Origin: Oikopleura dioica | Taxonomy: Eukaryota; Animalia; Chordata | Length of the DNA: 64,000 nt | Assembly: GCA_907165135.1 (NCBI GenBank) | Contig: OU015567.1 | Span: forward strand, 1,612,001 to 1,676,000 | Reading direction: 5' to 3' | In this document: piece by piece, positions 9,741 through 55,600 of the stretch | Layout of the letters: the number at the start of each line of letters is the position of its first letter | Position numbering within the stretch: position 1 is the stretch's first letter | Position numbers and translations under genes: made by a program | The notes under the pieces: model-generated | Seen by the model: the letters and a program-made list of their open reading frames with translations, nothing else | Told to the model about the DNA's origin: nothing | Databases searched by the model: none

Positions 9741-10054
9741 ATTTCAATTTTCAGATTTCGAGCAGTTTATTTCAGATATATGATAGAAAAGGGCAAATAA
9801 GGAATATTTTCTTTTAAAATTTTTCAGAACTAAAAAGGGTTGAAGAGAAAATAAGCCCCAAAAATGGCATAAAATGGGTTGAGCATCTTAGTCAGCCCAA
9901 AATTTAAAATTTCAAAGAAGGGGATGATCAGTAGAGTTTTCTGATCATTAATTGATAAAAAAATTTTGGGAAGCATCTACGGTTTCCCTGTAATGTAGAT
10001 ATATTTAACCTGTAAAAATTTGAAAACAATACGAATTGTCTATCAAAAGATAGA

Positions 10055-10270
10055 TTTTTTGGGCGCGAACCCTATCCATGCAAAAACGAGGACAGCGTGG
10101 AAGCTAAGAATTTACTGACTTGATAGGTAAAAAGGTACTTACAGAAGATCAAAGGTCGCCCAACATAAAACGATCCAATTTTTGAGTTTCAATTTTGTCT
10201 CTTCCTTCATCTTGGTAAATTAGAAAAAAATGCCGAACTCGTTTAACTTCTTGATGAGAAGATATGGAAG
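10055..10270 (+). pseudogene. Degenerate relic of the SLC43-like gene in inverted orientation
   Basis: tttttgggcgcgaaccctatccatg matches the IFGREPYAW-coding DNA at 6504-6528(-); a further block near 10190-10260 resembles IFSLLFMPWYNLE..SFTSLIE. Confidence 0.6.
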
Positions 10271-31661: not shown

Positions 31662-31715
31662 TTCTACTTCAAGTTTGCTTTCAAAAATTGAGAATTTTAT
31701 TTTTAGAATAGATAG

Positions 31716-34700
31716 ATGGGGCTGGTAGAGTTAGCCGTGGAAGGGAGCGGCAAAAAAGGAGCCAGGATTAATATGGGTGAGTTTTGGAAATTCTGAATTA
31801 AATTTCAATTGACTCTGACTCAATTAAATTTGAAGAGGCTCTTCTCCGGCACGATCTGGATCCGCAACCGCCGCCTCAACAATCATCTGGAATGGCAAAG
31901 AAAAAAGTAATTCAGATTTTTTGTCCGCACTCGTCTTGCACGAGCATATTGCCATATGAGCTTATACAGGAAACTATCTAACAAAAATTCTTCGTATCAA
32001 ACTTTTTTCTAATGCATGTTTTTAGGCAAGAGATCGAGAGACAGTAAGAAGTCGACAGAACAGGGTTCAAGTTCCGAAGCCTAGTCGAAAGGTAGGTTGT
32101 TTATCTCTTGAATCATTTTTCTCAAAGACTCTTTTTTAGACGCCCTTGCTCAAGAAAAATGAAGAGTTGCTCGCGACTTCGTCGACTAACCCAGCGCCGA
32201 AAGGGCCCGTTGTTGCTCCACCAGCAAAGCGCTCGACCAAGTACCAGCCTCCAAAAAACAGCGTCCCGAAAACGCAATCATCGAAAACTCTCTCTAATTC
32301 CAGCTCTCTAAAAACCCTCACCAGCACTACCTCCGCCGTGTCCAACGTTTCAAACTCTCAAAATACTCATCCAGGGATTCCAAAGTTTAAAAATACGAAA
32401 ACCGTTGTCAAGGGAAAACGACCTCCAGAAGTCAAAACGTCTTCCTCAACGAACGAGCAGAAATATGTGACGATTTCGGAGTCCCAACTTACGCAAATTC
32501 TCAATCTCGTCTCTCAAGGAATTCAAGTTCAGCAGAACTCCCTTCAAAATCTCCCTCAACAAGCTTTTCCCCAACCAGCTCCACAGCAGCCCCAACCTTC
32601 AGCCGTCCCAGTTGCACAACCTACAGAAAAACTTGCTGCTCAAACTACAGTTGCTCCAGATCCTTCAGTTCCACTAGAGCCAGAAAAAGAACCAGCGATC
32701 GTAACACGAGATGAGCTTTTGGAAACTACTCAGAAAGCAGTTCCTCTTGCGATGAAATCGAGCTTCCTCCCTTACGAAGCGATCCCAAGAGGCGATGTCG
32801 TCGACAAAGAAAGACGAGAGCAACAGCTTGCCTGGAGGCGAGAGCTAGAAAAGCAACGAGACGAGGATGTTATCCGAAAGAAGAAGGAAAAGGAAGAATA
32901 CGAAAAACACAAGAAAATCGACCATCATTTAGACCAAAAAGCGCAGTCCGAATACAAATCGTCGATAAAAATTATTCACGCTTCAGTTCCCGACTCAGTT
33001 GCCACTGGAAGTGCGGAGAATGGTACCGGTATTTCACCGAGAATGGGTGGCACTCAACCGCTCTCAATGCAGAGTAGCTTTCATCCTTCAGCAAATGTGT
33101 CAAATGTGGAAAGTTTGGATCAACAGAGGAAGGATCAGCAGCTCGCATGGCGGAGAGAACTTGAAAAACAGAGGGATGAGGATCTAGCACGAAAGAAAGA
33201 AGCAAAAGAAAGAGACCAAAAACTCAAGCTGATCGATCATCACCTTCATCAACCAGACCAGAATTATCAAAAACCATCGATAAAGCTCATCCAAGACAAT
33301 CCAAATCATCAAGGTAAAAAGATTAGTGCTTATAGATGGAACCAGTAGTTCAATTTTTATGCTATCACTAGATCATATTTCTTCGCTTGGAAGCTTTCAA
33401 TCAGCGGTAGATCAGTTGCATGGAACGCATGTCGGGGACACCGGTCATCATAGAAATATGAATGCGCTGAAAGATCCTGCAGGTAAGAATTTTTGGCGTT
33501 TTTCCTTGTTCGTTCGAATTTTCCGATGGTAAACCGGGTTTATAGAGCTCGAAAGATTAGAAAAACTGCGCAAGCAGCATGCAGAAACAGAAAGAGATCT
33601 TCAACTCCAAATTGAAGAAAAGAAACGAGCCAGGCAATCGGCTCGTGGGAACGATGATGATGGCGAGCCCTGGTGGGTGAAGCAAGATCGAAAGATCGCT
33701 AATGCAAACCGACGAAATCAGGCCCAACCAGCTCCTCAAATGCCTGATCGGCCGATTCACACTCACCAAGCACATCCGCCGAAGCAAGCCGAGCTTACAG
33801 TCGACGTTCTCCACAGCAAATTCGACACGGATACCACGACGACTCAATTGAAAGGAGAACCAATGGTCGCTCCACTGAAGCTAGAAGATCTTCTTGAGAA
33901 CTCAAGGCGATCTCCGTCTCCTCAAAGAAATCCACAAACAGCAAAGAAATCAGCGGAAGCAAAGCAGAAAACACTCCTAGAGCAGGGTTCAAAATCACCT
34001 AGTTTTTAGGTGAGGTGAGGTGAGGTGATGATTACAAAAAAGGTGCACCTTTAGGTGCACCTAAAAAAGTCCCAAATCTCGAAAATTTTAGGTGAGGTGG
34101 GTGAGGTGATAGATTGGAAAAAGGTGCACCTTTTAGGTGCACCTAAAAAAGCGAATTTTTGAAAAATTTTAGGTGAGGTGGGTGAGGTGATATTCTGAAA
34201 AAGGGTGCACCTTTTAGGTGCACCTAAAAAGAGGGATTTTGGCAGTTTTTTAGGTGAGGTGGGTGAAATTTAGGTGATAATTGATCAAGTGTGGGCACGG
34301 ATTTTGCTCCTGACTTCGATTTCGAGTCCTTTGAAATTCCTCGCAAATTTCTTCCGGGTAATCCGCAGATTTTTCTACGAGTCTGTGCGCGAGTAAATCG
34401 AGTAAATGGGTAAAGGATAATCGCGAGCTACTCGCGAAAATTTCGCCTAGAAAGAATAAAATTAGCTCGTCTGATTGCCTCGAGAAAAAGGGTTGCGGGT
34501 AATCGCGAGCTACTCGGCGGAAAGGATAAAACTAGTAGGGCGGGTAGCCCGTGAAAAGACTCTCCGCGCGAGTAACCCGTAATATGGTGCCCGAATGAAA
34601 GCTCAGCTTCTGAGCTTTTCTAAAACTGTGTCACATGACCCCTAAACTAAGCTAGAAAAATGGACCGAATTTTCATCTTATAAGCCTACTGATATTACCA

Positions 34701-35508
34701 AAGGACTCGAAATCAACAGTCAAGTTTGAATTTCAAACTTTAGAAGAACTCACCGAGAAAAAAGGTGCACCTAAAATCAAAACATTCCTAGGTGAGGTGA
34801 GGTGAGGTGATGATTTCAAAAAAGGTGCACCTTTTAGGTGCACCTAAAAAAGCATAAATCTGAAAAATTTTAGGTGAGGTGGGTGAGGTGACAATTTGCA
34901 CCTCACCTAAATTGAACAAGGTGCACCTTTAGGTGAGGTGATTTTGAACCCTGTCCTAGAGGAGCAAGTTCCGACAGATATTGAATTAAAAGCCCAGGAA
35001 AGAAATTTAGCGAAGAAAAAGAGGCAGATGGCGCTCTTAGAGGAGCAACTAAAGGTTTGCTTGGTATCTGTTCCAACCGACAGTGTTCATTATGTTTTTA
35101 TAGGTTGAAGAAAGAATACGAACGATGCGAATTCAAAAAGAAGCTGATAAGACAGCAAGAACAAATCGAGATCAAAAGGAACGATTTTAAGTTTTCTTGA
35201 CGCCCTTTGCTCTAGAATTTTCTAGAGCTCCCTCATTTAGAAATTATTCTTTGTTCGAAATCGTCTAAAAGCCATCAACTTCCCGCGAAAAACCAAAAAA
35301 TCCAACCGTCCCTTCAACTGTCCGTTCAAAACATTCCAAGCAAAACCTAACACAGAAGAAAACAGCCAGAAAAGAACCCGCTAAAGACGACTCTCACAAA
35401 TCAATGAACATTTCCTTCAATCAAAACGACACTGCAACGCTTCTCGAGCAGCTCACTTTACTGGAATCCGCGCTCAAGCATCGGCAGCACAAATTGTTGA
35501 CCAAATAA
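31716..35508 (+). CDS. CCDC66-like centrosomal/ciliary coiled-coil protein; one exon interrupted by a hAT MITE
   Basis: Two QQLAWRRELEKQ repeats, LKDPA|ELERLEKLRKQH..LQIEEKKR, C-terminal LLEQLTLLESALKHRQHKL. Confidence 0.65.
33983..34953. mobile_element. hAT-type MITE (971 bp) with 8-bp TSD, inserted in coding sequence
   Basis: TIR CAGGGTTCAAAATCACCT; TSD TCCTAGAG at 33975-33982 and 34954-34961; subterminal AGGTG and GGTGCACC arrays. Confidence 0.92.
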
Positions 35509-35799
35509 GATGGCAAAAATCAACGAATCAATTAAGCGGAGCACTACCTGTACTAAAACAAAACTTTACTACCTTTTTCATTCTATCACTTTTTTATTTC
35601 AAATCTATTTTTCCAGTTCAAAAATTTTGAGAAAAAATTTAAGTCATTTTTCTTAATTTTTCTCGTGTTGAATTTATGCAGGAAATAAGCATTCCATCAT
35701 TTAATCTAGATCGGTAGCTATCGAAAAACTACGGCATCAGGGTCATATTTTGCCGTTGCATTATGAATATTATCAAAACAATCGCATGTTCAACCCTAA

Positions 35800-36660
35800 C
35801 AGGAACAAGGAAAAGGAGAAGCCACTGCACAAAGCACGAAAAGACATTTTCCGAGATTAACTTTTTCTTCAAGGAGCTTGATTTCCAAAGCCCATTTTTC
35901 AATTCTGAAAAAAGATGCTCAGGCGACGTTCAAAAATGACGATTTTCTGATCATCGAGCAATCAGAATTGCCAATTGCAGTTTCGCTTATATGCTCTTTT
36001 TGAACGAAAATATAAGCTTATTGAGAAGAGATCGAAAGGGAGACTCGACGAGTTTTCGGAAAGGGACGATTGTTTTGACTGATGCCGAAGTCCGATCGAA
36101 ATTCAGGTTAAAAGTAGCTTGTGTAAAGGACTAACAGTTTTTTAGTACCAAAAGACCAAGACGACGATTTTATGATTGGGATCAACGGAATTTTTCTAAG
36201 GGCCCAAACACCCTTTATTTATAGAGCCTTTCAAAGATCGATCCGTTCTTACGACCTTCGATTTGCTCGATTCTCATTTGTTTATCCATCGAATTCATCC
36301 TTTTTCTTATATTGTCTGATCAAAGTAAATATCTTTCAAGTCTAAAGTGGCTTTATAAAAATATAGATCCATCAGCATTGCTCTTATTTTGGGCGGCGCA
36401 CACAGCTTTCTTCATCTCGATGATTTGGTTTTTACTCAGCAATATCGGTAGGCAAACATAAGTAGTCAATCCTAAAACGTAAAAAATATAGATCGATATA
36501 AAGTCAAAAAAGCTGTGAAGCAAAGAATCAACTACAGACAGACATTATTCCGTCACATCGCCCTCACAACTCTTATTTCACCTCAGGAAAGTCTCCTCAA
36601 AGTCTACTCGCTTATTCGAAGCTTCATTTTGGAGGATCAAAAAGATCGAACACGTGAGAT
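35800..36660 (+). CDS. Possible multi-exon orphan gene
   Basis: Stop-free exon-like stretch EQGKGEATAQ...VRSKFR (about 35802-36106) flanked by ag/gt; further pieces to about 36657. Confidence 0.3.
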
Positions 36661-37080
36661 TTCGTCGTTCAAGTTTTCCAATCCTCTCTCATGGCGAATG
36701 CATTCAAGATAGTTTGACGACCATCAATGAAAAAGCTGAAGAAAAATCACCGAAACCTCTTTGTGTAACGATTTCAAAATGTTGCGAGATAGAACCGAAA
36801 CTTCCGATGTAAAATCAAATCCTACTGTAATAAAAATTTGGATTCGGGGGAACCCAAAACTGTCGCTTATCAACGTCTCTAGAAAGCGCAATTACTTCCG
36901 AACGCACAAGTATTCGGCTAATCTAAATCGCGTTTCATTTATCACTGTTTTGAGTGTACTCGGTACCGCAAGATTTTGCTTTGTAAATCTGCTTATCTTC
37001 TCCCTTATAAAACCGCTCCCTTTCACTTTCATTTCATTATTTTGGCGAAGCAGAAAAAAAAGTAGAGACGCACGCAAAAA

Positions 37081-39329
37081 ATGAGGAGTTTGATCGTGTC
37101 GATATTTTCTGCACAGAGAACACTTGCTGCAGGATTTTTAAATTTTAATGTCGAGAAAACTAAAAAGGTACCATTCAAAAATCTTGAATACAAATTACAA
37201 TAGAAGTTTCTTTGAACAACAAAATTTTTGAAGGTCTGCGATTACGACCCCGCCTACCTCTGCGGCGAGAACAACGAATTATGTGGATCCTGGAGCTGTA
37301 ATGGAGACAGTGAAGACTCTACCTGCAATCTCATCTGCGCAGACGGCTCAACAGGCGGCTCTCGCCAATGCTCTTGCCACAAGTCCCACGGTCGCAACAA
37401 AATCTTTACCGGCTGCAAGTGGAGAGAAAGAAGCTCTCCTAGCTTTTGCCAGCCTGTACAAATCGAAGATGAAGAAAATTTTAAAGTAGAAAATGAAGAA
37501 ACTGAAGAGAAAGAAAAAGTTTTCGACGATTTTCTTTCAAAAATTATTATTGAAAAAGAAGCAATGGAAAAATCAACGATAGACGAGGTCTTCTCGGGAG
37601 TCTTTCAAAAATGCGAAGAGCAACTTCCAGGACTGGTTCATTTTTTCGTTGATAAAATTAAGAATTGAATTAAATTTTGAACCAGACCAGGGATGGAAAT
37701 CTGAGCGGCACGGCACGGCACGGCACAGCGGCATGGCACGGCACGGCACGTGCCGTACCGTGCCGTGCCGGAGAGTAAAATCTGGTTGCGGCACCGCGGC
37801 ACAGTATAATTAACCGTTCCTTGATTTGTTAATTTAAGGGGCTTGACGGCCCTTCGGGCCGTTTCAGCCCCGTTCCTTGATTTGTTAATTTAAGGGGCTT
37901 GACGGCCCTTCGGGCCGTTTCAGCCCCGTTCCTTGATTTGTTAATTTAAGGGGCTTGACGGCCCTTCGGGCCGTTTCAGCCCCGTTCCTTGATTTGTTAA
38001 TTTAAGGGGCTTGACGGCCCTTCGGGCCGTTTCAGCCCCGTTCCTTGATTTGTTAATTTAAGGGGCTTGACGGCCCTTCGGGCCGTTTCAGCCCCGTTCC
38101 TTGATTTGTTAATTTAAGGGCTTGACGGCCCTTCGGGCCGTTTCAGCCCCGTTCCTTGATTTGTTAATTTAAGGGGCTTGACGGCCCTTCGGGCCGTTTC
38201 AGCCCCGTTCCTTGATTTGTTAATTTAAGGGGCTTGACGGCCCTTCGGGCCGTTTCAGCCCCGTTCCTTGATTTGTTAATTTAAGGGGCTTGACGGCCCT
38301 TCGGGCCGTTTCAGCCCCGTTCCTTGATTTGTTAATTTAAGGGGCTTGACGGCCCTTCGGGCCGTTTCAGCCCCGTTCCTTGATTTGTTAATTTAAGGGG
38401 CTTGACGGCCCTTCGGGCCGTTTCAGCCCCGTTCCTTGATTTGTTAATTTAAGGGGCTTGACGGCCCTTCGGGCCGTTTCAGCCCCGTTCCTTGATTTGT
38501 TAATTTAAGGGGCTTGACGGCCCTTCGGGCCGTTTCAGCCCCGTTCCTTGATTTGTTAATTTAAGGGGCTTGACGGCCCTTCGGGCCGTTTCAGCCCCGT
38601 TCCTTGATTTGTTAATTTAAGGGGCTTGACATCGGCTGGGAATATTGCTATCAATCTCAGTAACGTCCCCAACCCCACCCTCACCCATTGTTTGAATAAT
38701 TCAAATTATCCAAGATTTTAATTTTATTATGGTTTTCATTTAAAATTTTGAAAATTCTATAAGTACACTAGCAGCTTTAATTTTTTTCATTTATGTAAAT
38801 AAGTTATATGATTCGAATTTGTGCCGTGCCGTGCCGTGGTGCCGCGGCACCCCATTATCGAATTTTGTGCCGTGCCGTGCCGTACCGTGCCGCGGCACGG
38901 GTATTTTGGTTGTGCCGTGCCGTGCCGGTGCCGCTGGAAAATTTTCTCATATTTCCATCCCTGAACCAGACGAAAGAAAACGCGGAAATAAGATGTAGCA
39001 TTCACGGAATTCGCCGAAAATGCGAAGTTACCTGTGGCTCGAAATCTCTCATAAACCGCTGTACCTGCATCGGTTCTTACTGTCAATGGTCGAGAAGATT
39101 TCCCAGCACATGTTCCCCTCCTCGACTAAGCGCAAGAATTGAAGAAAATCTTGAAAGAAGCAAAAGATGGGAAAGTGAAGAAAGATTGAAAGACATCTAC
39201 GGACTGGGCGACTTCAAAACGGTGATCGAAGATGGCGAGATTTATGTTCAACCGTTTGACTTGATTCAAACGATGGACAGGATCATGTACGAAATTGGCC
39301 TCTTCGACTCGAATGATGATTTAGCATGA
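37081..39329 (+). CDS. Secreted protein with two Cys-rich CxxxC..CxC..CxW modules
   Basis: MRSLIVSIFSA start; CNLICADG..CSC..CKW and CEVTCGS..CTC..CQW; exons join in frame across the 37688-38963 element. Confidence 0.7.
37688..38963. mobile_element. hAT-type (Ac/Ds-like termini) MITE of 1276 bp carrying a tandem array
   Basis: TIR CAGGGATGGAAAT; TSD AACCAGAC at 37680-37687 and 38964-38971; subterminal GGCAC/GTGCC pentamers. Confidence 0.92.
37814..38630. repeat. Tandem array of 14 full plus 1 partial 56-bp hairpin-containing units
   Basis: Unit ccgttccttgatttgttaatttaaggggcttgacggcccttcgggccgtttcagcc; only one 1-bp deletion seen (near 38120). Confidence 0.97.
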
Positions 39330-39648
39330 AACTGTAATGGACATTTCTGTACAGTTTATTTTCTGACGACTTATTGATCTCAATAATAAACCCTTTTTTA
39401 AATCAAAGATTCAATAATTAAACTTTATTATCAGAATTCTAAATAACTGTGCATCAATTTACAATTCAAATTTTCAACATTCAGGAAAGCAATATTTTTA
39501 AATGTACAAATGGAATGTCCAAAAGGAATGAAGATTTCAAGCTTGAGCCCAGAATGTGATGAGAACCTATTAGGTGAACTTTCGAGCTTTCGTTAATTTT
39601 GTAGTGTTTATGGCTTTTTGATGTTTTTCGATGTGTTTTGTTCTTTCG

Positions 39649-42590
39649 TCAAACTTGATCTTCTCGTCCAGGGCCGCTTTGGGTTCCAGTTTTATATACC
39701 ACAGCTAAAAATTAAAAAAATTTAAGAAAAAATTTTAATCATTAATTTAAAAAAATTGATCAAAAATTGATTTAATATTTTAATCAAAAAATTTTTGTCA
39801 AAAAATTTTATTTATTTATTAAAAAAATAATTTTAAGTTTTATATATTAATTTTATTCTTATTTGTTAAACTTACTTCTATGACTTTTCGCGCATCTGAA
39901 GAGCAAAATCGACAAGCAGAGTAAAACCGTCAGGGAGACAACGAGGAGAACGACCATCGTTATGCGGCTGGTGCTTATGAGAGTGAGCCAATCTGAAGTC
40001 GAAAAAATTAAAAAATAAAGCAGTCGAAATTGCTGTCCATTCTAATTCAATTGACTCTCGCTGAATAAATAAGAAATAGCTTCAAATCAGAGTCAGAAGA
40101 ATTAGGTTCAAGTGCTGTGCATTAGCCTGGCAATACAGACTTGAATCCATTACTGAATCGAAGTGAATATTTCAAATACAGTAAGAGGCATTTGTTTGCT
40201 CAACTGACATTGATAACTTATTCAAGAGCTATTTCATTCTTTATTCTTTTGAAACCGACTTACTTGTAGAAATATCAAGCAATGTAACACTCGAAACGCG
40301 CCCCAGGCTATTTTCAGCTACGCACTCGATGTTCAGTCCACTGTCAGTGAGCTTCACTTCTTCGGTTGAAATTCTGTTGCCTAAAACAAGAAGAATGATG
40401 CCTTGATAACTTGACCTTTTAATTGTTTCCAGGAGCAAGGAAAACATTCCAAGTGTTTAACCGTTCTACTCGAGTGCCTTTCATGCTCGAATTTTGGAAG
40501 ACAATTTTCTAGAGCTGTAACAGGGACATTCCACTAGCTACCGAACAAGATTTATAACTAAGAATTATATTCTCTTAAAATTTCAACCAAAAATCGAGAA
40601 GCCGCTTGCGGCTTCGAGCTAAAAGAAAGATGAGCCGCGCGTAGCGCGGCTTTTCTGTCATGTTATGCTCGAAGCCGCAAGCGGCTTCTCGATTTTCGGT
40701 AGAAATCTTAGTTCAGAGAAATCTTCCTTCTTTCTTCTCAATAAAAGAAAATATCACCTTTGCTTACCTGTTATTTTCCAGTGTGATGTATCGATGTCCG
40801 TCTTGTTTGGGTTAAACAATCTCCAAGTGTAACTGACTTCCGGAGAGCCGGAAGAAACACACTCGAAAGTCTTTTTATCCGCGCTGGCGGAGGCATCCTC
40901 CATCGAGGGTAAAATTTCACTGATCTTCGGCGAGCTTGGCTCCCACGTGACCTTTATCTCGGGGGAGAATTGACCCGAATGAGGGCCGGAAACAGTTCTA
41001 GAGCGATGGCGGACCAAACATTCGAAACTTGCGCCGGAGAGGGATTTTTCGGCAATGAGCTTAAAATTGATAGTAAAAATTTGAACTTAAATTTGAAATA
41101 CTGTTTTTCTCTAAATCTATGTGTAAATATAAGCAGATAAGTTTTATCCTATAAAGCCCACACAATAAAGACGCACTACTTTTTATCTTATCTACCTCAA
41201 GCGTGTTTATGACAGAAGATAATCCATTTTCAGCAGTAGAAGAGCTCTCCATCACGCCGTCGAAAATATTTCCATCGCGGTCACGCCACTGTATCTCCGC
41301 AGCAGGATGACTGTTTTTGGCAGTACAAGTAGCGATCTTGATTTTTGAGCCTTTTCTCGTTTCGATTTCACCATAATGCTTGAACTCGACTTCAGGAGCA
41401 ACTGAAATCATTTGGTTAATCAGATGATACCCTTAATTCTTGGCTTAGCAAATTATGGTCAAAAACTGAGTCAGGGTCCTAGAAAAGCTCAGATAAAAGC
41501 CGCGTAGCGGCTTTCTCAAAACAAAGCCGCGAAGCGGCTTCGCCAAAATTTCCCTTTTAATCTATTTTCTGTTGTTTAGGTCTACCCTTAAATGTAAGAT
41601 ACCGGATTTTGTTAAATCAAAAATTCACGAAAAAATATATAGAAGGACAACTACTAATAAATAATACAAAATGCAAGTGAATGCAAGTGAAAAAGTTAAT
41701 GTCAGAAATAATGCATGGTTAAACTATGCATTGACGTGTCCTTGTTCGGGCAAACATTCTTTTCTAAAGGGGACAAGAGTAGTTGTAGAACCTTACCGTA
41801 GATGGTGACATATGTTGTTTGTGTTCTGCGCTGCCTATTCGTGCAAATGTAAGTGCCCTTGTCCGACGCAGCTGTGTTATCTTTCCGAAGGCGTAAGCGG
41901 TCCGCAACTCTGAATAAAACAGTCACATTTTGAGCGTCAGAAAACAACGAGTTTGCAAATTAATTCCAGTCCGAAAAAAAATTTTCAAAAAAAAAAACTT
42001 TTTTTCAAAAAAAAAAAAGAATCTGGAAAGAAATTCCGCAGTACTGCCACAATACTGTTCATTCTGAATAAGCACTCAAATAGCAGAAATGAGTGACCAA
42101 ACGGACAAGAAAAGATTTGCATAATGTAGCGCGTGCCCAGTCTCGCTCATTTCGTATGCGCCATCAGTTTACCACCGCCGCGGTCTGTTCTGATGGCCAA
42201 CACTGGATTTTACCTGGCGACGCGGATTTACTTCCTTACTTTTAAAAAAAGCCCTAATTTTGATTTGTCGACACTTTGAAGAAATTTTAGCAATTAATTT
42301 TTATTAAAAAAACTGATTGTTTATTCATTTAATTTCAAAGAAAATGCTTTTCAATAAAGCAAAAGACATGAGCAAATTACCTGTCATCAATATTCCAACC
42401 GGACTCGACATAAAACGGCTCCGGCGTCATTGTGAGCAGCGTCGACTCTCGGCCGCGCTCATCAACGCGCCGAAGGTCGAGATAGACCCCGTCAAAGTCG
42501 CAGCTAATCGACAATTGACCTCCACTGTCCAAGAATACTTCGGCTTCGGTTGCTCCCAGCGCGCAGTTGATCAGAAGAATCAAAACTGAA
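39649..42590 (-). CDS. Type I membrane Ig-superfamily adhesion protein (nectin/CADM-like); first exon not located
   Basis: LSISCDF, DKGTYIC, ATCTAKNSHPAAEIQW, FECVSSGSPEVSYTW, IECVAENSLG, TM MVVLLVVSLTVLLCLSILLF. Confidence 0.8.
40557..40712. mobile_element. Short foldback element with GCCGC-nnn-GCGGC hairpins (truncated copy at 27618-27681)
   Basis: aaaatcgagaagccgcttgcggcttcgagc ... gctcgaagccgcaagcggcttctcgatttt; actaaga/tcttagt ends. Confidence 0.7.
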
Positions 42591-43634
42591 AAATCATAAT
42601 TACTCATAAAAAAGTTTATTTTTATATTAAAATGAAGGTTAATAATTGACAAAAAGTATATATCAATCATTGAATTTTCGAGATTATCACTTAAATTATT
42701 CGAAGAAAAGTGAAAACCCGTTCTGACCTCGGTAAACCCCGGAATCCCGGAATCCATTCTAATGACTCAGAATTAGTGCAAGCTGCCGCATAAATCCCTC
42801 CCTAATCCACCGGCTATCAATTATCAATTTTTCTATTTCGGCTAATCCCAAATGGAATTTCAACTCATTCTTGTAAAGGTTCATGGAAGTTCCTAAGTAT
42901 ATGCAAATTGTCACCGATATGCCAAACAAAAGAGCTTGTCCGTTCTTTTTTTTTTCTCAAAAAAAAGTTCCTTATCTTAAATATTTATTTTTGCGATAAA
43001 TTTTTGCATTATTGAGAAGCCGCTGGTGCAATCTTGGCGAAAAAGAAAGGTGCATAAACTTTCTTTATCGATAAAACAAGGCAAGAAAAAAATAGCCGAA
43101 AAGGCGAAAAAAAAACCCTGAGAAAAAAAATGACTGACCAGGAGCAGCTGCTTCGGACTATCGAAAACTTAATCGCGAGAAATTAGAATTAATGACGCTA
43201 ATTCGCATGAAACTCTGAAAATTTTTCACTTGTCAAGTTTTTTTCGTCTTGAGAAAACTTAATTCATCCCCTTTCTTGACACTTTTTTAGGTAAAAATGA
43301 AAACTTATTGGATAAAAATGTCTAAATTCGTCAATCTTTAACGCCGTTAATGTGCGATAATTACTTTTTGATAAGCTTTTTGACGTAAAGCCGAGCCAAG
43401 AAGTGGCCCAGAAAGAGGTTTTTCTCCAATAATCAATCTTCAATTATATTTTACGTCTTCCCTTTTTTACCTCCCTTGGGTCATTTATTGCGCCAACTCA
43501 CTTTGGCACATGTTTTCTAAATTATTTTTAACTTTTTCTTTGATTTTTTTGCGCTGAAAAATGACCTTCAAATCTGGGCATATTAATTGGACTGTTACTT
43601 TTGCTTTTTCAGAATAATTTATTTTACGAGTAGT

Positions 43635-43860
43635 AAGGCTGAATCAGGGTCTGGAAAAAAACTGAAATGAAAAGCCGCGTAGCGGCTTTTTTAAAAACGA
43701 AGCCGCGAAGCGGCTTCGCCAGAATTTTTGATTGATTAAAATGGTAATATCAGCGAAGCCGTTTTGCGGCTTCGTTTAAAAAAAAAGCCGCTATGCGGCT
43801 TTTCATTGTAGTTCTTTAAAACCCTGACTAAGGCTTTTTACGCAGGTTGCCGAGCCCAGG
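43635..43860. mobile_element. MITE with TCAGGG/CCCTGA inverted ends and GCGTAGC/GCGAAGC mini-hairpins (related copies at 41466-41545 and 44984-45124)
   Basis: tcagggt...aaagccgcgtagcggcttt...aagccgcgaagcggcttcg...accctga; same motif order at 41466; tagaaaacctgagtcagg/cctgactcaggttttcta at about 45003-45102. Confidence 0.7.
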
Positions 43861-46800
43861 CGAGCGCTTGAATCTTCTAGCAGCTTTTTTTCTTCCAAAA
43901 ATCATCTATCTGTTCTTTTTTTCCACTGGAAAAGGTCCAAAAATCACATTCTTGAAAAACAACTTAGGGGAAATGAGTTCGTTCAGAATTCTAGTGCTCG
44001 CCCTTCAGATTCGTCAAATTTGCTTTTGAAATGAGCGACAAAGTATCCAAAAAAAGGAAGGAGGGAACGGAAGATTCATCGCCGCGAAATAATTCAGGCG
44101 CCCTCGAAACTCTGATTCAGAAGTCTCAATTTTTAAAACGAAAAACAAGAAATGTAGACGGAAAATAAAGCAGTAAATAAATTGATATAATTAGCGCGCG
44201 ATTGTGAAAATAAAAAGCGCGATTATCGGCGAAGAATTTAGCACTGCTTTCTCAGCCAATTTTTGAGGGTCCCACTTTGAGATAAAACAAGAAAGCCGCA
44301 AACTTTTGAATTACTGCATAGTTACTGTCAAAAACTATCAAATGAGTTCAGTTTTTATCGCTTCAAATTATTTAAACAGTAGCTCAAAACATTTTTCCTC
44401 GAAAACTTGTCTGCGGCTTTAAATTTTCGGCGCGGCTAGATTGACTCAAAACGCGGCTTTTTGATTTCTTCTCGAAAATGTCTTACTTAATATTTTGGAA
44501 GTTTAAATTAGAAGAAATCTCATCACCAAGCTTTTTTCAAGAAAAGCCGCGCGCGGCTTAAAATTTCCTTTTCTGAATAAGCCGCAGAAAATCCCCTTTT
44601 TTCCTTTAAAAACCTACCTCCAAGTATTTTCATTATTCCAAAATTTTCGTTTATCTTCGATGCAGGGGGTTTCTTCTGATCTCTCTCTTTTTTCTTTGAA
44701 TTTCTTGAATTAATTGGACTGTCAAATCTTCGAAAATCCCGTCGGCAAAAGCAGAAGTCCTCGTCAAGGCGCTCTCGTCCGACGGCAATCTGTTCTCCTT
44801 TCTTTTTCACAACAGCTCTCGCGCGCGCCCTCTTCTTTCCGTATTTTTAACGCAAAAGTGAAAGTAATGATCCCTTTTCTTTTCTGCGATGTTTTCTGAA
44901 ATAAGAATATAAGTGAAGAAACTTCCTGATAAAAAAATTATTTTCATTTATAAATTTTGCCAGGTCACATGACCAAAAGGAACCAGGCCTCGGGAAACTG
45001 CGTAGAAAACCTGAGTCAGGATCTGAAAGATAATTAATGAAAAGTCGCGCCGCCGCTTTTTCGAAAACAAAGCGGCCCTTCTTACCCTGACTCAGGTTTT
45101 CTAAACAGGCTCTCGAGCTTAGGCGGGAAAATGATCAACCAAACTATAATTGAGCTATTTCTTCGAATCAATTTCCTCCAAACAGATTTTCAAAAAGACT
45201 CAGATTATGCGCCTAATTGCGGTCAGAATTTCACTCCTTTGAAGGAGCTGAATTTCAATTTTCGATAATGAGATGGAAACTGAAGAATCTTTGGGTCATT
45301 GTCAGTCAAAGCGGTCAAGCGCTTGAATTTTTAAAAGATTGAGACATTTAAGGACACAAAGAATTCCATTAAAATTAAGTCTTTTTTTTTTTCTTTTTAC
45401 CTTTTTATGTTATTTTTTTCTTAATTTCAATTCTCTTTTGTAAGAAAAAATATTGTTTTGACGAGTTTCGCTTTGCGTCCTTATTATCTCAATGTCAAGA
45501 GCTGCGATACAAGATGCACTGAAGGAAACTTTTTGGAAGAATCAACACCTAAACAAACATCAGTTTTGTTGACAAAACCAGCCACGGTGAAAAAAATTTT
45601 CGTCCAAATTTTCAAAATGAGCGTCTTCAGCTGGACGAGTTTTATTTGCGAGTTTTCCTGATAGGACAGCTTTGGAGCAGATTAAAAACGATTTGTTTTT
45701 CGAAGGAGATTTTTTTTTATCGCAGTTCAACAAAAAATTAAAGCTAAATGGTCAAATTTAATTTGTTCAAGCCACGACTTAAATTTTCAAAAAAGGCTTA
45801 AAAAATTCGAGGGAAATTATAATTTGAATAGTTTTATGCAAATTTTTGGCGTAACCTCTTTTTGGTGTGAAATCACGATTTCTTATCGAGTCCCTTTGAC
45901 CTTAATTAACCACGTGGACGATTTCATTTCCATATTCTGAAAAAATCCTGCCCAGAAAAAGAAATGCCGCAGATCCATTACACTAATTTTATGCTTTCCA
46001 TCTCGACCGTGAAAAAGATCAAAAATTTGATAGATTGGTATATTAAGCAGTTTTAAACAATTTTCTTGATTTTCATCAGTAGTTTTTTAACTCAAAGAAT
46101 TAGGATAATTAGAAAAATCTACTCAGTTCCACATTTACAAAGTCATTTACTTATAGCCTCATTTTTTTAATAATCGAACCATTTAAAAGCAAAATCGAAC
46201 CATTTTCGGAAGATTTTGCCCTATTTTATGATTTATCTGGGTCTTTTATCACAGATAAACTGTTTACACAAGTCAAACAGAAAAAATTAATGAATTTGAT
46301 TCATTTAATCAGGTTTTTTTTGTGAAAAAACAAGTCGAGCTGGAGCTTATATTTCCAGTAACAGCTGGTTTTTTTACGGATTTAGTTGATAAAGATAGAA
46401 TCGAACCAGTTTTTTGGCTATTTTTGATCGCTTATCTTTATTCTGCTACGTACAGAAAGATCGTTTTCCAAGTCGTTTTCAGAATATCGTTTTTTATTTA
46501 TTGCTATTAATTTAATACTCAGTCTGCGATACTTGTGCCTAGGCTGGAAGAGGAGCATATGGTTTGCATGCACCGACGGATTTCTAATTGCTCAATAAAT
46601 CTGCAATCGGAAGTCTTTACCGACACTAACTGTCACATAAATGACATATCATTTCTCACTGCAACTCTGGCTCAACTTATTATTTTGTTCATCGAATGAA
46701 AATATCGACAAGTTATAGTTTCTTCTGGACAAAGTTAAATGTCATCACAAAAGTGGTTCTTTTTGTTTTAGTTCGATCCTATCCTACCGTAAAAATTTCC

Positions 46801-47777: not shown

Positions 47778-50420
47778 ATGATAAAACATAGATTGTTATT
47801 TTGTCTCTTCTTAAAAATTCTAGCGGCAAGAGAGAAAATCAACGAAGAGCAGCCAAATATCATTTTTGTTTTGGTAGATGACCTGGGCTGGAGTGATGTC
47901 AGGTGACATTTGATTTGGCGCTCGAGAATTTTGATAAATTAATATTGAAAATTCTAGCTGGAATAATAAAAAGATAAAAGCGACCCCGTTTCTTGGGCAG
48001 CTAGAAAAACATTCGGTTACTTTGACAAGTTCTTATTCGACTCACAGGAAATGCTCAAGATTCTAGTCACTAAATTAATTATAATACCGATGAAAAAAGA
48101 GATTTCTTCTCATACAGAGGAAGTCTTCCATCTGGCGGGGTCCTCCGCCGTGCATGAAAAAGCGAAATACGCTCACACGGTATCGCTATTGAAATTTCGA
48201 GCGTAGAAAAGGTGTACTCCAAGTCGAGCGTCTTTATTAACGGGGAAGTACGCCTGGCGATTTGGATTAGGGACTGACCCTATCGATGCGAACACAGCCG
48301 CAGGTACTATTTAAACTGACCCGAAGGAAAATACAACATTCAAATTCAATAGGCCTCGATCTAAAAGAAAAACTTCTGCCAGAAATCCTCAGGGAAAATG
48401 GCTACTCAACTCATCACGTGGGAAAGTGGCATTTAGGCCATTGCAACTCGTCGTATCTTCCTCACAATCGCGGATTCGATACTTTTTACGGCCACACTGG
48501 AGGAGTACTGAATTATTTTCAGCATAATCGAGCGGTGGGAAACTGCAAGTATCTCGATTATTTTGAGAACGACAAGCCTTTGGAAAAGAAGAAGGGGGTT
48601 TACTCGACTTTTGACTTTGGGGATCATGCAAGAAAGTTGTACAATGAGATTGGTGATCCGAAGTTTATTTATTTAGGACAGTTTTTTCAAGATTTTTTTC
48701 ATAAATTTAATTATTTTATCTTCTTAAAAACTCAAAAAGCCCTGAATGCGCCGCATGGACCACTCATGGCGCCGGATTATTTGATCGAAGAAATGAAAAA
48801 GTTGTACCCAGACTCGCCGAGAACTAGACTGACGTATCTTGCAATGGTGAAAGCGATAGATATGGAAATGGAAAAGCTGTTGGGAACAATTTGGATGAAA
48901 AACGAAGAAAGAGATACTATAATAGCAACGGGTTTAAGTCAAGAATAACAATTGATCGAAATCAAGGAAGAAACCCTCTGAAAGTTTTTCAATCTGACAA
49001 TGGCGGGCCTCTGTACATGAATGGGAGACCAAAGGATCTGGACCCTTCAAGATATCGGCAGGCTTGCAACTACCCCTATCTCGGCGAGAAAACGCTCTTG
49101 ACCGAGGGTGGAACGCTTTCTCCGACGATAGGTTAGCCGAGCCTTCTGTATCCTTGACACACTTATATTCAGTTTATTCGGTAAAAAATCGATTCCCGAA
49201 GCGCAATCTTCCTCACTTATTCCACATTTCTGACTGGTTCCCGACTCTTCTTAGCCTCGCTCACGTTCCTGAAGGAAAGATATTTAAATGTCAAATTCAG
49301 AATAGAGCCAAATCAAGACCACATTCTTTGTCACTTTCTAAATATCAAAATCAGCCGAATATGGAAAGCAAAAGAACTTGGACGGAATCAATCAAGTTTC
49401 AATCTTCGGATGGAAGGTAAAAGTTCTAGGAAAGATCTCTGTTGTATCATGAGGAAATCGATGATATAATACATTTTGAATATAAAAATTGGATTAAGAA
49501 AGTAGCCAAACCGCTGCGGACGAAAATGGTCTATGGCCTGACAAATCATTTCACGGTAGAAAACGGCTGGGACGTAAAATTCGTCGCAAGAGTTGGAGAA
49601 ATGAAATATTACAGTTACAAAATCGAGGTAAAACCGTTCGTACGCTTCTTGGCGAAATGAGTTTTGAAGGCACCGGTGCTGAAATGTCCAGAAGGATTCA
49701 GCAACGACAAGTTTCTGCGGCTTCTGCGAGACGACTTGGGAAATGACAATATCGTGGAGATGATGGGTCGAGTCCGAAACGCAAGTAACACGATTCTTGG
49801 GAGCAGAGTCAAAAGAGACCATAAAGGATATTCTCTTTTCAACTTGACGGCTGATCCTTTTGGTAAGACAGGTTGCCGAGACGAGCTTTTCATCAATAAA
49901 ATTCAGAGCAAAATGATCTGGCAAAAGGCGAAGCCTACCTCAAATCGGTCAACGCTCATCTCGTCGAAAAATACGGCGAAGGCATCGGTAAAAAGACAAT
50001 CAAGGTCGAAAACCGCCTCGGCTGGAAACTTCCGATAACAGGGCCAAAGCACAATTTCTGGAACCGGATCTACAGTTTCATCACTCCGCAAAGAACGAAA
50101 AAGTTTCTCGCAAAATCAGGACGAATTAACGGAAAATTGGTTGGGCTGGACTTTTGTGAAAGTAAAAAGGATGAAGAACTGATGCTTGAAATTTTAAATC
50201 CGGTACAGGTAGGGTAGAAGCTTTTTTATACAGTAAAAATTGGTGATAGAATGAATCATTTAAAACAACAAAAGTTAAAAAAAATTCAGATAAAAACTTC
50301 GAAAAGAAAGAAAAAGACGCAACACATCCTCACCAAACTCATAACAAACCAATTTCCCTCACTCGCCGTAAGTCTCGATTCATGAAAAATTCTTTCATGA
50401 AAGATGAAGCTTTAAAATTG
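47778..50420 (+). CDS. Arylsulfatase (ARSB/I/J-like)
   Basis: PNIIFVLVDDLGW, CTPSRASLLTG (formylglycine motif), GYSTHHVGKWHLG, RGFDTFYG, SDNGG, HISDWFPTL, LFNLTADP. Confidence 0.93.
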
Positions 50421-50462
50421 CCTGAAACCATCAATTCTGTAAATAAACAAGATCTATGTTTT

Positions 50463-51824
50463 TTACTCGTTGCATTTTATTTCAGAGAAGGATTTTTTGG
50501 AATGATAAGAAGGGGTTTCGCTGTTCTTCCTTGATTTCAGTGTTGAAGCTTTATATACAGGAATTGTTTCAGGGAGGGGTAGAATGAGGAAGACTTATTT
50601 ATTCGGTAGGAGCAGTCGGCTAGATAAAAAATAAGTTTCACGATTCTAGTGAGTTCTAAGGGCATCTAGGCATTTGACTAACCTTAGTCCCATTGACCAA
50701 CGGCTGGCTCATTTGAGATTCTGTGTCCATTAGTGAGGTATCAACGCTTCCGCGGGTCTAGAAATTTTTTAGGAAAAGAGTTAATTGGAAATGATTACCG
50801 GTCGAATCATATTTTTCTTCGACAATTTTCGCTCGGCTCTTCGATCGACGGATTTCTTCGTGGTTCTAGTGAGAACATAGATGAATTCCAAGACGCAGAT
50901 GAGGATCGACAAGCATGTGACCTAGAAATCTATGTTGAGTATTCTTTTTGGGTGGTGACTTACAGTAGTCATGTAGAGCATAAAAATAGTCTTCTCCCAA
51001 GGCCTCGAAACCCAGCAGGGAATGAGCGGATTCTGGGAGCAAGCGGAGTTGTCCTCAGTTTCTCCATGAGTGCACTCGTACTTTTCAGGAACCCACATCG
51101 CAGCGATTCCGACCTTTTTCGACTGTTGCTGCTGGAGAACGTAGGAAAAGTAGAGGAAGAGGATTTCGAGGAAGAGCTTGAAAAGAAGATGGACAATGTA
51201 AAAGGTGCGGATGCGAGGGGTCCATTTGACTTCGACGACGTCGGAGTTCGAAGTGATGGTGAGTTTCTGCTTCATTTTGTCCATTCCGAGCTTCTTTTCT
51301 TTCGAGTTGATTCGGGACTGGTAGGCTTTGTACTGGTCGCTTGAGAAATAATCAGCCTGAAAAACACTATCTTGGTGACGATCAAGTGAAAGGGTCTTAC
51401 CGTTCTATTCTTCTTTTCCTCATCAGCCCGCTCTTTCTTGACAAGCTCGATCTTAGCGATTTCGAACTGGGCGAAAGTCATGAAGGCCAAACTTGGAAGA
51501 CAGACGAACATCATTTGAAAGGCCCAAAAGCGCATGTGCGAAATTGGCGAAAATCGGTTGTAACAAACGTTTTGACAACCCGGCTGATTTGTATCGCAAC
51601 GGAACGCGCCCTAAAAATAATGTTCTGAAATTTTTCTCCTTTATTTTTTGAGTTTCTTGTTATTTATTGAGGCAACTTACGCTTTCATCGCCATAGACAG
51701 CTGATCCGACGACTGCAGTAATGAACATTCGGAAGGTAAAAAGCAGGAACATCCACATGTAGCCCAGCGGAGTACTGTAATGCAGCGCCTTGTTGACTGT
51801 ATTTTCTAAAATACCCCACACCAT
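50463..51824 (-). CDS. Connexin (gap-junction protein)
   Basis: [48 protein letters not shown]; [13 protein letters not shown]. Confidence 0.95.
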
Positions 51825-52801
51825 TTTGAGGTTTGTTCTCTGTCAGTCTCTTTTTTTTAACTTTTTTGTATTCTCGTTTTTCGGTTTTTGGCGCGGAAAA
51901 GAATGACAAAACGAAAAGGGCAAAATCTGATTTTGATCCTCTTTTGCGAGGGCGCCACAAATAACTGTACACAGCTGGAGACAAGGAGGGCGAGAAGTGG
52001 ACCGATCCTTATCCGGAGCGTCCCGGTTTGAGCGTAAATAAAAGCAGGGAACGTAAAATTGGGGCTTTTAGGTCACGTGACGTTTTCGAAATGGATAATT
52101 GAGACTAGTTCCATACAATTAAGAGGATCGAGAATGTTAGACATGACTCTTGATCGAGTTTTATGTCAGAGATTACAAACTTACATCCTTATTTTATCCT
52201 ACAACAGTGAAGTTGATATTGAGATCATCTGAAAGTCAACATCGAGTTATGACATAAGTGATTTTTCAAGCAGATTTTCGAAGGCCTGATTGAAGCAAAA
52301 AAATCAACTTTCGTATCCTGCCTGCTGAAAAAGGATGAAATCAATAACCAGCTTTTTTGGCTCGAAATAATTTTTCGAGAAATTATCGTCAAGGGGGTCC
52401 CTAATCCGATAAAAAGAAGAACCGGGCTCTTAATTCTGACAAACTCCGACGGAGCATAACGATCTTTTCAAATGTTAAAAGAGCGCTAATTTTACGGGAT
52501 CGTCCTTTTTTGGTTCATTCCTTGACAGTTTTTCATGGTCCTTGAGTCCAGTTTTGATTGATTACAAAAGATTTTCCCTTGAGTGTCTCAAAGGCCTATC
52601 GCATGTCTACCAGACAAATTTTTACTTCCTGGCAGATGGTGTCAACGACTTGATAAGGCTGGACGGATATTGGCTTAAGAATTTTATATTGGTTGTTCTG
52701 GAGGGTTATAAACTCAATATACAAAAAGAAGAAAAAGAGATTCTGTGTTTGTCACGTGAGTATTTTTATCAATAAACAGAGGTATATTTAGTAAAAAAAA
52801 G

Positions 52802-55600
52802 TCAAACAGATTCTTCTGGATCCGAAATTTCAACAGCTTTTTCGTTGATCACTTGAAGCCTCGGAACCATGGATATTGAATCGATAGAAATATGATCATT
52901 TGTCGAAAGAATGATGTTTTTCTTCGTCTTAAAAACAGTTGGGCAGAGAAAAAACGATCAGAGTACCTGGGGACTCCTAGCAGAGGCAGATGCATTGCCG
53001 AATGTCTTTGGCGAATGAGGACTTGACGGAATTTTTTGATCTGGACTGTACGTCCTTATTATTGGTCGTTTGGAAGAGCAAAATGAATCCTCCGTTTTAT
53101 TGGAAATCAGAGATCCTTTCGAGTCCGTGCGCTGAGAGACGAATGGCTAGGCTTACCGGACTAAATTTCGACCCCTATTTCTAGCTTAGTTAGGTGGTCA
53201 TATGATACAGTTTTAGAAAGCCTAGCTTCTGGGCTTTCATTTGGGCACAAATTTTAGGGGTCTGGGTCATGCCCGCAAGGCAATTCATGGGACCTGAAGT
53301 CCCAAAATAGGTACTAGAATCCTTTAAACTACTTTTTCGATGCCCGTCCGGGCTCGAGAGTAGTCAAGAGTCGCATATTTAGAAAGCTCAGGCTCTGAGC
53401 TTTCAGTAGAGCTCAAGAAATCTTAGCGCCAAGCCGTTTGTGGCCACCTGGAGGCGCTAGAAGCTTGCGGTGAAAATCCGGAAATGCCGGAAAACTCGGT
53501 TTTTGAGTTCTAAACTCTACAATTATATGTATAAAACATATATATACAATAATTAACGCGTTAAAAAGTTGAACCGCGGTCGAACCGGGTGGTTCAACTC
53601 TACAAACCTTCAAAAACATGGAAATATGGCCCACGATGAACCACCCGGTTGACCACCCGGTTCGACCGCGGTTCAACTTTTTAACGCGTTAATTATTGTT
53701 TATATTTGTTTTATACATATAATTGTAGAGTTTATAACTCAAAAACCGAGTTTTCCGGCATTTCCGGATTTTCACCGCCAACTTCTAGCGCCTCCAGGTG
53801 GCCACAAACGGCTTGGCGCTAAGATTTCTTGAGCTCTACTGAAAGCTCAGAGCCTGAGCTTTCTAAATATGCGACTCTTGACTACTCTCGAGCCCGGACG
53901 GGCATCGAAAAAGTAGTTTAAAGGATTCTAGTACCTATTTTGGGACTTCAGGTCCCATGAATTGCCTTGCGGGCATGACCCAGACCCCTAAAATTTGTGC
54001 CCAAATGAAAGCCCAGAAGCTAGGCTTTCTAAAACTGTATCATATGACCACCTAACTAAGCTAGAAATAGGGGTCGAAATTTAGTCCGGTAAGCCTACGA
54101 ATGGCCGACCGCGTTTTTGCTCGTTGATGTCTAAATAAAAAGGTTACGGTTACGTCTACGATTACCGGTATGATCATCTAAATGGGTATAAGTTCATTTT
54201 AGTATTTAGTAAAAATAGAGATGTTTTACATAAAAATCAAGAAAATGAAGGTGAAATCACTTTTGATGTCAATTGTCAAGGTTAATTTATACTAATTGCC
54301 TGCACGTAATTAAATAAAATACGTTATGACATTTGTCCCTACCTGCAACAGAATACGACTTCTGCGGCGGTGATTTTTTCTTCTGAGCTGGAGCGGCTGT
54401 CAAACTACTTCTTCTACTTTGCGGTCTAAAATGATCTATTCAGTGCGAACTTTGGAACGGACGTGCTCATCAATTATTCATGATAGCATTTTGTTTCTAC
54501 CTCTTGCTTGTTAGACAAACATACTGTAGCTTCTCTCTAAAAGAAATTAACCTGGAACATGGAAGAGGCATTAAAAAACCTCCTGCATCAATGGACGGTC
54601 TTGGTCCTCGGCGATGGTGGTAATTTCGGATCTTATCTTCTTCGTCTTCCTTTTTTGGGCTTCAGACAAATTCTCAATATTCACTAGAATGCTCTCCAGA
54701 ACCCGTTCCTCGACATCTGATAAATTCGAAATGCCGCCAAAGCTCAGTTGACTCCTACTCGATCTTCTTGATCCACTCATGCTCGACCTGTCGTAGCCAG
54801 TTCCAACTGAGATGCCCATAGAAATGCCCGATTCTTCAATGTCGAAATGATTTTTTCTTTTTTCACCAATATTTTGGTCGTGCGCAGATCTGATGTGAAT
54901 CGAAGTGACTGTTATTGCCATTGTCAGAATGAAGCCGATCAGTCCAATAACTGCGACGAAGAATCCAGCTAATTTTGGTTCAACAAAGGAAGTGGCAAAA
55001 AACCCGTTCAAAAACGATGAAAAATTAAGTTTTGAGGTCCAAAGCTTGAGATCCAACGACAAGTGGTGACGGTCTCACGCGATTTTCAATAAATTTTGCA
55101 AGTTAATACATGTTTATAACAGCTTTCAAATTCAATTAATGTAGAATCTAGAAGCATTTGAAAAATTCCTTCTGCCGAAATTTGTCGCAAGCTGGGTTTG
55201 ATACAAAAGCCAGCCGCCCATGGCGACTAATGTGCAACTTTTAAGAGGGAAGATCAATATTAGGCCTTAGATGAGAGTGGACTAAATCTAAAAAGATACC
55301 GCTACTACCCAAAAATTGCCGTAATCATTACAATCCCTTTCCTGGAAGCAACAAGAAGTAAAGCAGCAGTGCTGTGCAACCTAAAAAGCTTCTTCCCAGG
55401 CGACCGATCCGGCCTTCTTGAATGAATCCCAATCCCATACAGCGATAAAAGAAAGCAACCAAACTCGTAGAGGATCAAAAATATAACGATGCCCTTGGTA
55501 GAACTGTCCGTGTCCACGTAAAACTCATCCTTCCGCAACGCGATGACTGAAATCTAAATGCATCGTTCATTTCGGTTGATACGGTTCATCGCGAAGCGCA
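52802..55600 (-). CDS. Multi-pass membrane protein with long Ser-rich cytoplasmic tail; one exon interrupted by a palindromic hAT MITE
   Basis: TM exons at 55305-55538 and 54571-55062. Phase-matched chain ...KSYSVA|DINEQKRGRPF[element]VSQRTDS...RSPQ|TKKN...EESV* (stop 52802-52804). Link between TM exons and tail is inferred. Confidence 0.6.
53148..54097. mobile_element. 950-bp foldback hAT-type element with ~450-bp near-identical arms and 8-bp TSD
   Basis: Ends TAGGCTTACCGG / CCGGTAAGCCTA; TSD CGAATGGC at 53140-53147 and 54098-54105; spacer of about 57 bp. Confidence 0.95.

What the first reader, a model, noticed from the sequence alone, without database searches (positions are those of the whole stretch)
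33975..54105. Pattern: all three intact 8-bp-TSD elements hit exons or splice sites and all have splice-compatible outcomes
Three different hAT-type families (ends CAGGGTTC, CAGGGATG, TAGGCTTA) lie in or on exons, while the TTAA and TA elements here lie in introns or intergenic DNA. Inference: an 8-bp TSD plus YAGG termini, combined with permissive splice-site recognition (GA-AG introns occur in this window), forms an ongoing intron-generating system that leaves 2-aa insertion scars. With n=3, survivor bias or chance cannot be excluded.
Basis: inference. Interest (0 to 1): 0.78.

Follow-up and report, generated by a model that had tools for sequence, protein, structure and literature searches.

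The report
Jumping genes landing on splice signals
Small jumping DNA elements in a planktonic tunicate sit in or next to exons, and one family prefers a landing sequence that looks like an intron's end; this likely makes one copy harmless and another removable as a new intron, but other copies likely just break their genes, so this is probably not a dedicated intron-making system.

Summary
The three elements and their 8-bp duplications (TSDs) are real, in Oikopleura dioica DNA. The pattern is overstated. A fourth intact element (6510-10074) is also exonic, has only a GAG acceptor, and sits in a gene with a frameshifting deletion; a fifth, decayed one is intronic. About 45% of the window is coding, and permissive splice rules give an in-frame exit at 55-91% of random coding sites. 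One real mechanism emerged: the family of the CAGGGATG element targets GTCTAGAC-like sites (13 of 16 half-sites carry AG at TSD positions 5-6; 1.7 expected). That explains its landing on an acceptor and, if shared, gives the CAGGGT-ended element a built-in +6-nt GT-AG exit. The TAGGCTTA element's exit is weak and arises differently. No RNA of this lineage was listed, so splicing is untested. Against a system: a public gene model ends inside the first element, two exonic relatives look null, 0 of 63 introns show relics, and a published screen lists 0 introner families for this species. Transposon-made introns are known here, and this scan noted similar unproven single cases in other genomes.

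The parts
33983..34953 (.). E1: non-autonomous hAT-like element, ends CAGGGTTC, 81-bp subterminal repeats; TSD copies 33975-33982 and 34954-34961
33987..34959 (+). Predicted E1 intron, AGG|GTTCAA to CCTAG|; net +6 nt (LLEEQ becomes LLEQEEQ); donor 25th and acceptor 33rd percentile of curated sites; not shown spliced
31716..35508 (+). Host gene A, CCDC66-like (weak Pfam hit, E 1.5e-4, below cut-off); about 134 predicted residues lie downstream of E1; the public model P0001 ends inside E1
37688..38963 (.). E2: non-autonomous hAT-like element, ends CAGGGATG, GGCAC subterminal repeats, internal 56-bp array; TSD copies 37680-37687 and 38964-38971 each carry the acceptor CAG
37636..38969 (+). Predicted lengthened intron of host gene B (old donor to duplicated acceptor; 50 nt becomes 1334 nt; no scar)
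53148..54097 (.). E3: foldback-like element with 446-nt inverted arms, ends TAGGCTTA; TSD copies 53140-53147 and 54098-54105
53147..54098 (-). Predicted E3 intron, TTC|GTAGGC to CCTAG|; net +6 nt (PF duplicated); weak donor and acceptor; host exon inferred from frame only
6510..10074 (.).
6120..6130 (-). Approximate site of a 26-codon frameshifting deletion in the E4 host relative to the 93%-identical P0002
4194..5510 (.). E0: older element with TAGGGTGG ends and a 6/8 TSD, nested in a TTAA element (3535-6019) in a predicted intron
48677..48739 (+). GA-AG intron in a sulfatase gene (AG|GACAGT), supported by the split motif

Best explanation
These are likely recent insertions of several unrelated non-autonomous hAT-type transposons, landing in exons about as often as a gene-dense genome allows, with outcomes predicted to differ copy by copy rather than one intron-making system. 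Shown: E2's family targets a GTCTAGAC-like palindrome, which puts AG at TSD positions 5-6 on either strand and so resembles a 3' splice site. Inferred: (1) landing on a real acceptor duplicates it, so E2 probably just lengthens an intron with no scar; (2) if E1's family shares this target, its CAGG|GT end plus the TSD's TAG gives 8+4-6 = +6 nt, so E1 is probably at least partly spliced as a young intron; (3) E3's weak +6 exit is probably chance; (4) E4 and two exonic relatives elsewhere are probably null alleles carried at low frequency.
For: Target: 13 of 16 E2-family half-sites in 15 metagenome loci have AG at 5-6, against a null mean of 1.7 and a maximum of 8 in 20,000 draws; the same consensus is in print for CAGGGG-ended hATs (PMC3014272 Table 1; PMC2836564). 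Target weight at curated acceptors is 17 times the window mean. E1's TSD scores 5.6 (99th percentile of window 8-mers is 3.9) and E2's 2.9, while E3, E4 and E0 score -3.8, -1.0 and -4.0. Chance of a +6 GT-AG exit for E1 rises from 0.07 to 0.26 with the target preference; for E2 it is 0 under GT-AG and 0.02 under an AG|G rule; any in-frame exit under any-G donors is 0.55-0.91. Likely nulls: E4; L006, a complete E2-family copy in a FAM47-like exon whose +6 route contains an in-frame TAG; L011, a related element in a DHHC exon with the first AG 32 nt away. No TSD relic at 0 of 63 curated introns. Zero introner families in 3 of 3 O. dioica assemblies.
Against: All four intact 8-bp elements touch coding sequence (p 0.04-0.07). 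E1 and E3 both have a strict GT-AG +6 exit, with single-site chance 0.07-0.26 and 0.08, so selection for spliceable copies is possible. The target preference was measured on E2's family only; the one other E1-type half-site (L005) scores 0.7 and lacks the AG. The published screen and the gene model P0001 may miss such long introns for annotation reasons. The splice scores rest on 63 introns from my own rough, GT-favouring models, so GA and GG donor scores are unreliable.
Confidence: 0.6

Rival explanations
1. The CAGGGT-ended (E1) family is a true introner: its end supplies the donor, its preferred target supplies the acceptor, and spliced +6 copies accumulate in genes of this lineage.
For: E1's donor and acceptor fall in the normal range (25th and 33rd percentile). 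The same 10-mer AGG|GTTCAAA is the predicted donor of a resident POLD2-like intron at 29399. No internal GT donor of E1 (0 of 61) reaches the median score (before four coordinate fixes). A hAT-Charlie introner with an 8-bp TSD is listed in another tunicate.
Against: One copy only. P0001 ends inside E1. No relics in 63 introns. Zero introner families listed for the species. Even with the target preference only 0.16-0.26 of exonic insertions get the +6 exit. Read ends from another lineage show E1-type subterminal repeats behind CAGGGATG ends, which lack the GT.
Confidence: 0.2
2. None of the exonic copies is usefully spliced: E1 and E3 are truncating alleles like E4, and the in-frame options are coincidence.
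For: P0001 truncates at E1. E3's sites score at the 2nd and 5th percentile. Curated introns are short (2 of 63 exceed 300 nt), so 950-1300-nt introns are unusual. The named assembly of P0001 came from one highly heterozygous male (PMC8008620 passage), which allows rare nulls.
Against: Genes A, B and C show no second lesion in the modelled parts, unlike the E4 host. E1's sites are of normal strength.
Confidence: 0.15
3. One reading: all YAGG-ended 8-bp families plus permissive GA-type donors form one ongoing intron-generating system leaving 2-aa scars.
For: A +6 option exists on paper at E1, E2 and E3. GA-AG introns exist in the window and the species (PMC7072748).
Against: Different geometries and targets. 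E4 has no +6 exit. At a CTAG-type target the AG|G rule gives E2's family +5, a frameshift. L006 and L011 look null. Only 1 of 15 E2-family loci was shown to be in coding sequence, with 3 undetermined.
Confidence: 0.05

Closest known systems
Introners that recruit splice sites from the TSD (PMC9860276, passages; Fig. 2F legend: Aureococcus, 8-bp TSD, +12 nt, four added amino acids)
   Same: Non-autonomous TIR element with TSD; one splice site from the element and one from the TSD; codon-adding outcome
   Different: Known introners are multi-copy families of spliced introns. Here there is one candidate per family, net +6, and no splicing shown.
Styela clava introner fam1, hAT-Charlie, 6 copies, TSD 8, 'co-opt both' (PMC12130899 supplement file 8 row)
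   Same: Tunicate host, hAT class, 8-bp TSD
   Different: Listed as an introner family with mostly non-canonical sites. The same study lists 0 families for O. dioica (file 7 rows).
Charlie-related hAT elements with NTCTAGAN targets, and hobo_AC with TAGGCTT ends (PMC3014272 Table 1; PMC2836564 passage)
   Same: E2's family has CAGGG ends and a GTCTAGAC consensus; E3's end TAGGCTTA resembles hobo_AC
   Different: No transposase was found here. By my arithmetic the tabulated CAGTG and CAGGGGT ends would give +4 and +7, out of frame; only CAGGGT gives +6.
Transposon-derived introns in Oikopleura (Denoeud 2010, seen only through PMC3443670 and PMC3296678) and MITE-derived introns in Fritillaria borealis (through PMC11282704)
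   Same: Same or sister lineage; intron gain by insertion of TIR elements
   Different: Those were introns with transcript support; the Fritillaria ones are non-canonical and numerous.

Membership tests
hAT superfamily, non-autonomous | 8-bp target-site duplication | tested here: met
   Perfect at E1-E4 and at L006, L007, L008; 7/8 at L013; unmatched at L012
hAT superfamily, non-autonomous | Terminal inverted repeats starting with YAG | tested here: met
hAT superfamily, non-autonomous | Cognate hAT transposase | not testable with these tools
   No genome held; no open frame of 130 aa or more was examined inside E1-E3 (skipped them)
Charlie-type hAT | NTCTAGAN target preference | tested here: met
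   Met for E2's family, 13 of 16; E1 fits in 1 of 2 sites; E3, E4, E0 do not fit
Introner | Element is spliced out of host mRNA | tested here: inconclusive
   No RNA holder listed; laid runs are a diverged lineage
Introner | Splice sites supplied by element end and TSD, in frame | tested here: inconclusive
   On paper: E1 yes, E3 weak, E2 duplicates an existing acceptor, E4 and L006 no
Introner | Many related introns at unrelated gene positions | tested here: not met
   0 of 63 window introns with relic geometry; 1 of 15 E2-family loci shown coding and it looks null; 0 families in 3 of 3 assemblies. E1's family could not be sampled genome-wide.
Introner | Empty site in an orthologue or allele | tested here: inconclusive
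   No informative joint across E1 or E3; in-frame empty sites are inferred from the TSDs

The most novel reading that the evidence does not exclude
CAGGGT-ended hAT elements that target NTCTAGAN are pre-adapted introners. The palindromic target supplies a YAG acceptor at +6 on either strand and the end supplies a donor at +4, so the outcome is always +6 nt. E1 is a young intron of such an unrecognised family in O. dioica, and the fourth to sixth bases of a hAT end predict which families can make introns in any animal.
Probability: 0.2. Interest if true: 0.62.

Novelty: new member of a known kind. Interest (0 to 1): 0.36.

Why it matters
O. dioica has gained many introns, and their source is only partly explained. 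A rule linking a hAT family's target site and terminal bases to its splice outcome would make intron gain predictable and testable genome-wide. As it stands, the window gives one good candidate (E1), one likely harmless acceptor duplication (E2) and several likely nulls. That fits ordinary transposon load better than a new system. I did not find the NTCTAGAN-plus-CAGG|GT arithmetic in the papers returned by my searches, but the two key primary papers were not held.

Tried and rejected
No whole genome is held, so no genome-wide catalogue was possible. No RNA holder listed for 29000-37680. Six of the 24 listed runs were laid. On 29000-37790 most reads were under 90% alike and no listed joint crossed E1; the tables were truncated. 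On 52700-53600 one read was laid in four runs: no test. E2's junction and E4 were not covered by reads. No homologue for gene C (longer proteins only) and no Pfam family for genes B and C. No Rfam match. My coding-potential score could not classify metagenome flanks: the DHHC exon scored 0.2. I used Pfam instead, on 34 frames and 104 chosen flank frames, mostly from the 250 listed. An apparent exon at L007 was dropped once its left end showed non-coding flanks. The 6-nt micro-exon model for E2 was considered and judged unlikely. A dipeptide-duplication scan would catch E3-type scars but not E1-type ones. Huff 2016 (PMC5684705) and Denoeud 2010 (PMC3760481) were not held. Files 13 and 14 of the PMC12130899 supplements were not searched.
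Full report
Organism. The exon upstream of the first element is 100% identical to P0001, which its source names as an Oikopleura dioica gene model. No whole genome was available. This species has very short introns (median 49 bp) and about 11% non-canonical introns (PMC8008620, passages). Its GA donors are reported in the context AG|GAA (PMC7072748, passages).

The observation. An exhaustive scan for inverted ends with flanking duplications confirms E1 (33983-34953), E2 (37688-38963) and E3 (53148-54097), each with a perfect 8-bp TSD. It also finds a fourth intact element, E4 (6510-10074), and a decayed fifth, E0 (4194-5510, TSD 6/8), nested in a TTAA element. E1 lies in an open frame of a CCDC66-like gene (weak Pfam hit), with about 134 predicted residues downstream. 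E2's TSD holds the AG of a predicted acceptor, and the flanking exons join in frame. E3 lies in an exon inferred from frame continuity over five exons; it has no homologue or read support. E4 lies in a coding exon of an MFS-type transporter gene. A GA-AG intron at 48677-48739 is supported because it splits a sulfatase motif.

Is the placement unusual? My rough gene models put 45% of non-element DNA in coding sequence. Three of three touching coding sequence has p 0.09-0.13, four of four 0.04-0.07, and four of five 0.13-0.20.

Is splice compatibility unusual? I inserted each element with an 8-bp TSD at 15,834 site-orientation combinations in 20 coding stretches and looked for an in-frame, stop-free exit within 12 nt. 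With any G-starting donor the chance is 0.55 (E1), 0.55 (E2), 0.91 (E3) and 0.59 (E4). With GT-AG only it is 0.27, 0.07, 0.24 and 0.26. The permissive form of the claim therefore carries little information. Against 63 curated introns (61 GT, 2 GA; chosen by me from GT-favouring models), E1's donor and acceptor rank at the 25th and 33rd percentile. E3's rank at the 2nd and 5th, with a stronger acceptor giving -9. E4's only nearby acceptor (GAG) ranks below all of them.

The target site. A scan of metagenome contigs with a motif from E2's ends, which puts no constraint on the flanks, returned 15 loci. I take them to be the same species because their ends match read ends from runs with the same species label. 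They give 16 half-sites: L012's two unmatched ends were counted separately, and the outer elements of other subfamilies in L009 and L011 were left out. The consensus is GTCTAGAC. Thirteen of 16 have AG at positions 5-6 on at least one strand, against a null mean of 1.7 and a maximum of 8 in 20,000 draws. This target is in print for Charlie-related hATs with CAGGGG ends (PMC3014272 Table 1; PMC2836564 passage). E1's and E2's TSDs fit it (5.6 and 2.9); those of E3, E4 and E0 do not. A second E1-type half-site in L005 scores only 0.7.

How it likely works. The target resembles an intron's 3' end, and its weight at real acceptors is 17 times the window mean. Inferred for E2: it landed on an acceptor and duplicated it, so the old donor can splice to the second copy with no scar. 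Inferred for E1: the TSD's TAG plus the CAGG|GT end give +6 nt, and the chance of that exit rises from 0.07 to 0.26 under the target preference. The same donor 10-mer is the predicted donor of a resident intron at 29399. E2's family has no GT in its end: its +6 exit has chance 0 under GT-AG and 0.02 under an AG|G rule, and the AG|GG donor gives +5. E3's +6 comes from a different geometry, with TSD bases completing both GT and AG. There is no single system, and GA permissiveness is not needed for the two best cases.

Results against an ongoing system. The E4 host lacks 26 codons with a frameshift relative to the 93%-identical P0002. L006 is a complete E2-family copy in a FAM47-like exon (weak Pfam hit). 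Its empty site is in frame, but its +6 route contains an in-frame stop, and the only open in-frame exits use low-scoring sites and delete 15-27 nt. L011 has a related element in a DHHC exon (E 6.5e-19) with the first AG 32 nt downstream; its other end is off the contig. Of 15 E2-family loci, 1 was shown to be coding. By eye, 5 are in or beside other elements, 6 look intronic or intergenic, and 3 are undetermined. P0001 ends inside E1. None of 63 curated introns shows 6 or more of 8 TSD matches in either geometry. A published screen lists 0 introner families in 3 of 3 O. dioica assemblies (PMC12130899 supplement file 7), though annotation may limit it.

All four intact elements touch coding sequence. 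E1 and E3 both have strict GT-AG +6 exits. Genes A, B and C show no second lesion in the parts modelled. Survival of spliceable copies remains possible.

What is known. Introners recruiting sites from TSDs, including an 8-bp-TSD family that adds four amino acids, are described (PMC9860276, passages). A hAT-Charlie introner with an 8-bp TSD is listed in the tunicate Styela clava. [quoted passage not shown] PMC13326754 and PMC3488318 were seen as passages and added only context. The primary papers by Huff and by Denoeud were not held, and their supplements may already describe these families.

Verdict. The elements are real, the pattern is overstated, and splicing is untested. E1 is a good candidate for a young hAT-derived intron with a clear arithmetic basis. 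The finding is a new member of a known kind, interest 0.36.

Noticed in passing
window 6510-10074: E4 carries a complete-looking trypsin-like gene with a PTEP repeat stalk (Pfam PF00089, E 5e-22) and the 3' part of a second gene (aminotransferase-like by recalled resemblance; no Pfam hit). It looks like a gene-capturing hAT element and may deserve its own study.
   Followed up: partly
window 2870-10220 (-): The MFS-type transporter gene (SLC43-like by recalled resemblance) looks dead: E4 insertion, frameshifting deletion, and a TTAA element with two nested elements. P0002 reads through the TTAA site as if empty.
   Followed up: partly
window 34575-34688: The interior of E1 holds a 76%-identical relic of E3's terminal 114 nt.
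   Followed up: no
window 37814-38630: A 56-bp tandem array, 14.6 copies at 99% identity, inside E2; the complete metagenome relatives L008 and L012 show no match to it.
   Followed up: no
window 27036-27137 (-) and 35179-35271 (+): Two further predicted GA-AG introns with the AG|GAA context, inferred from frame only.
   Followed up: partly
window 40576-45117: Several small hairpin elements sharing a GCCGC..GCGGC dyad, in non-coding DNA.
   Followed up: no
L005, L009, L011: E2-family copies lie inside or beside other CAGGG-ended elements, suggesting nesting hotspots; the outer element of L009 may also be exonic (by eye).
   Followed up: partly
window 58379-59079: An element with long inverted arms related to the inner element of E0 (about 70% identity over 115 nt); no clear TSD.
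   Followed up: no
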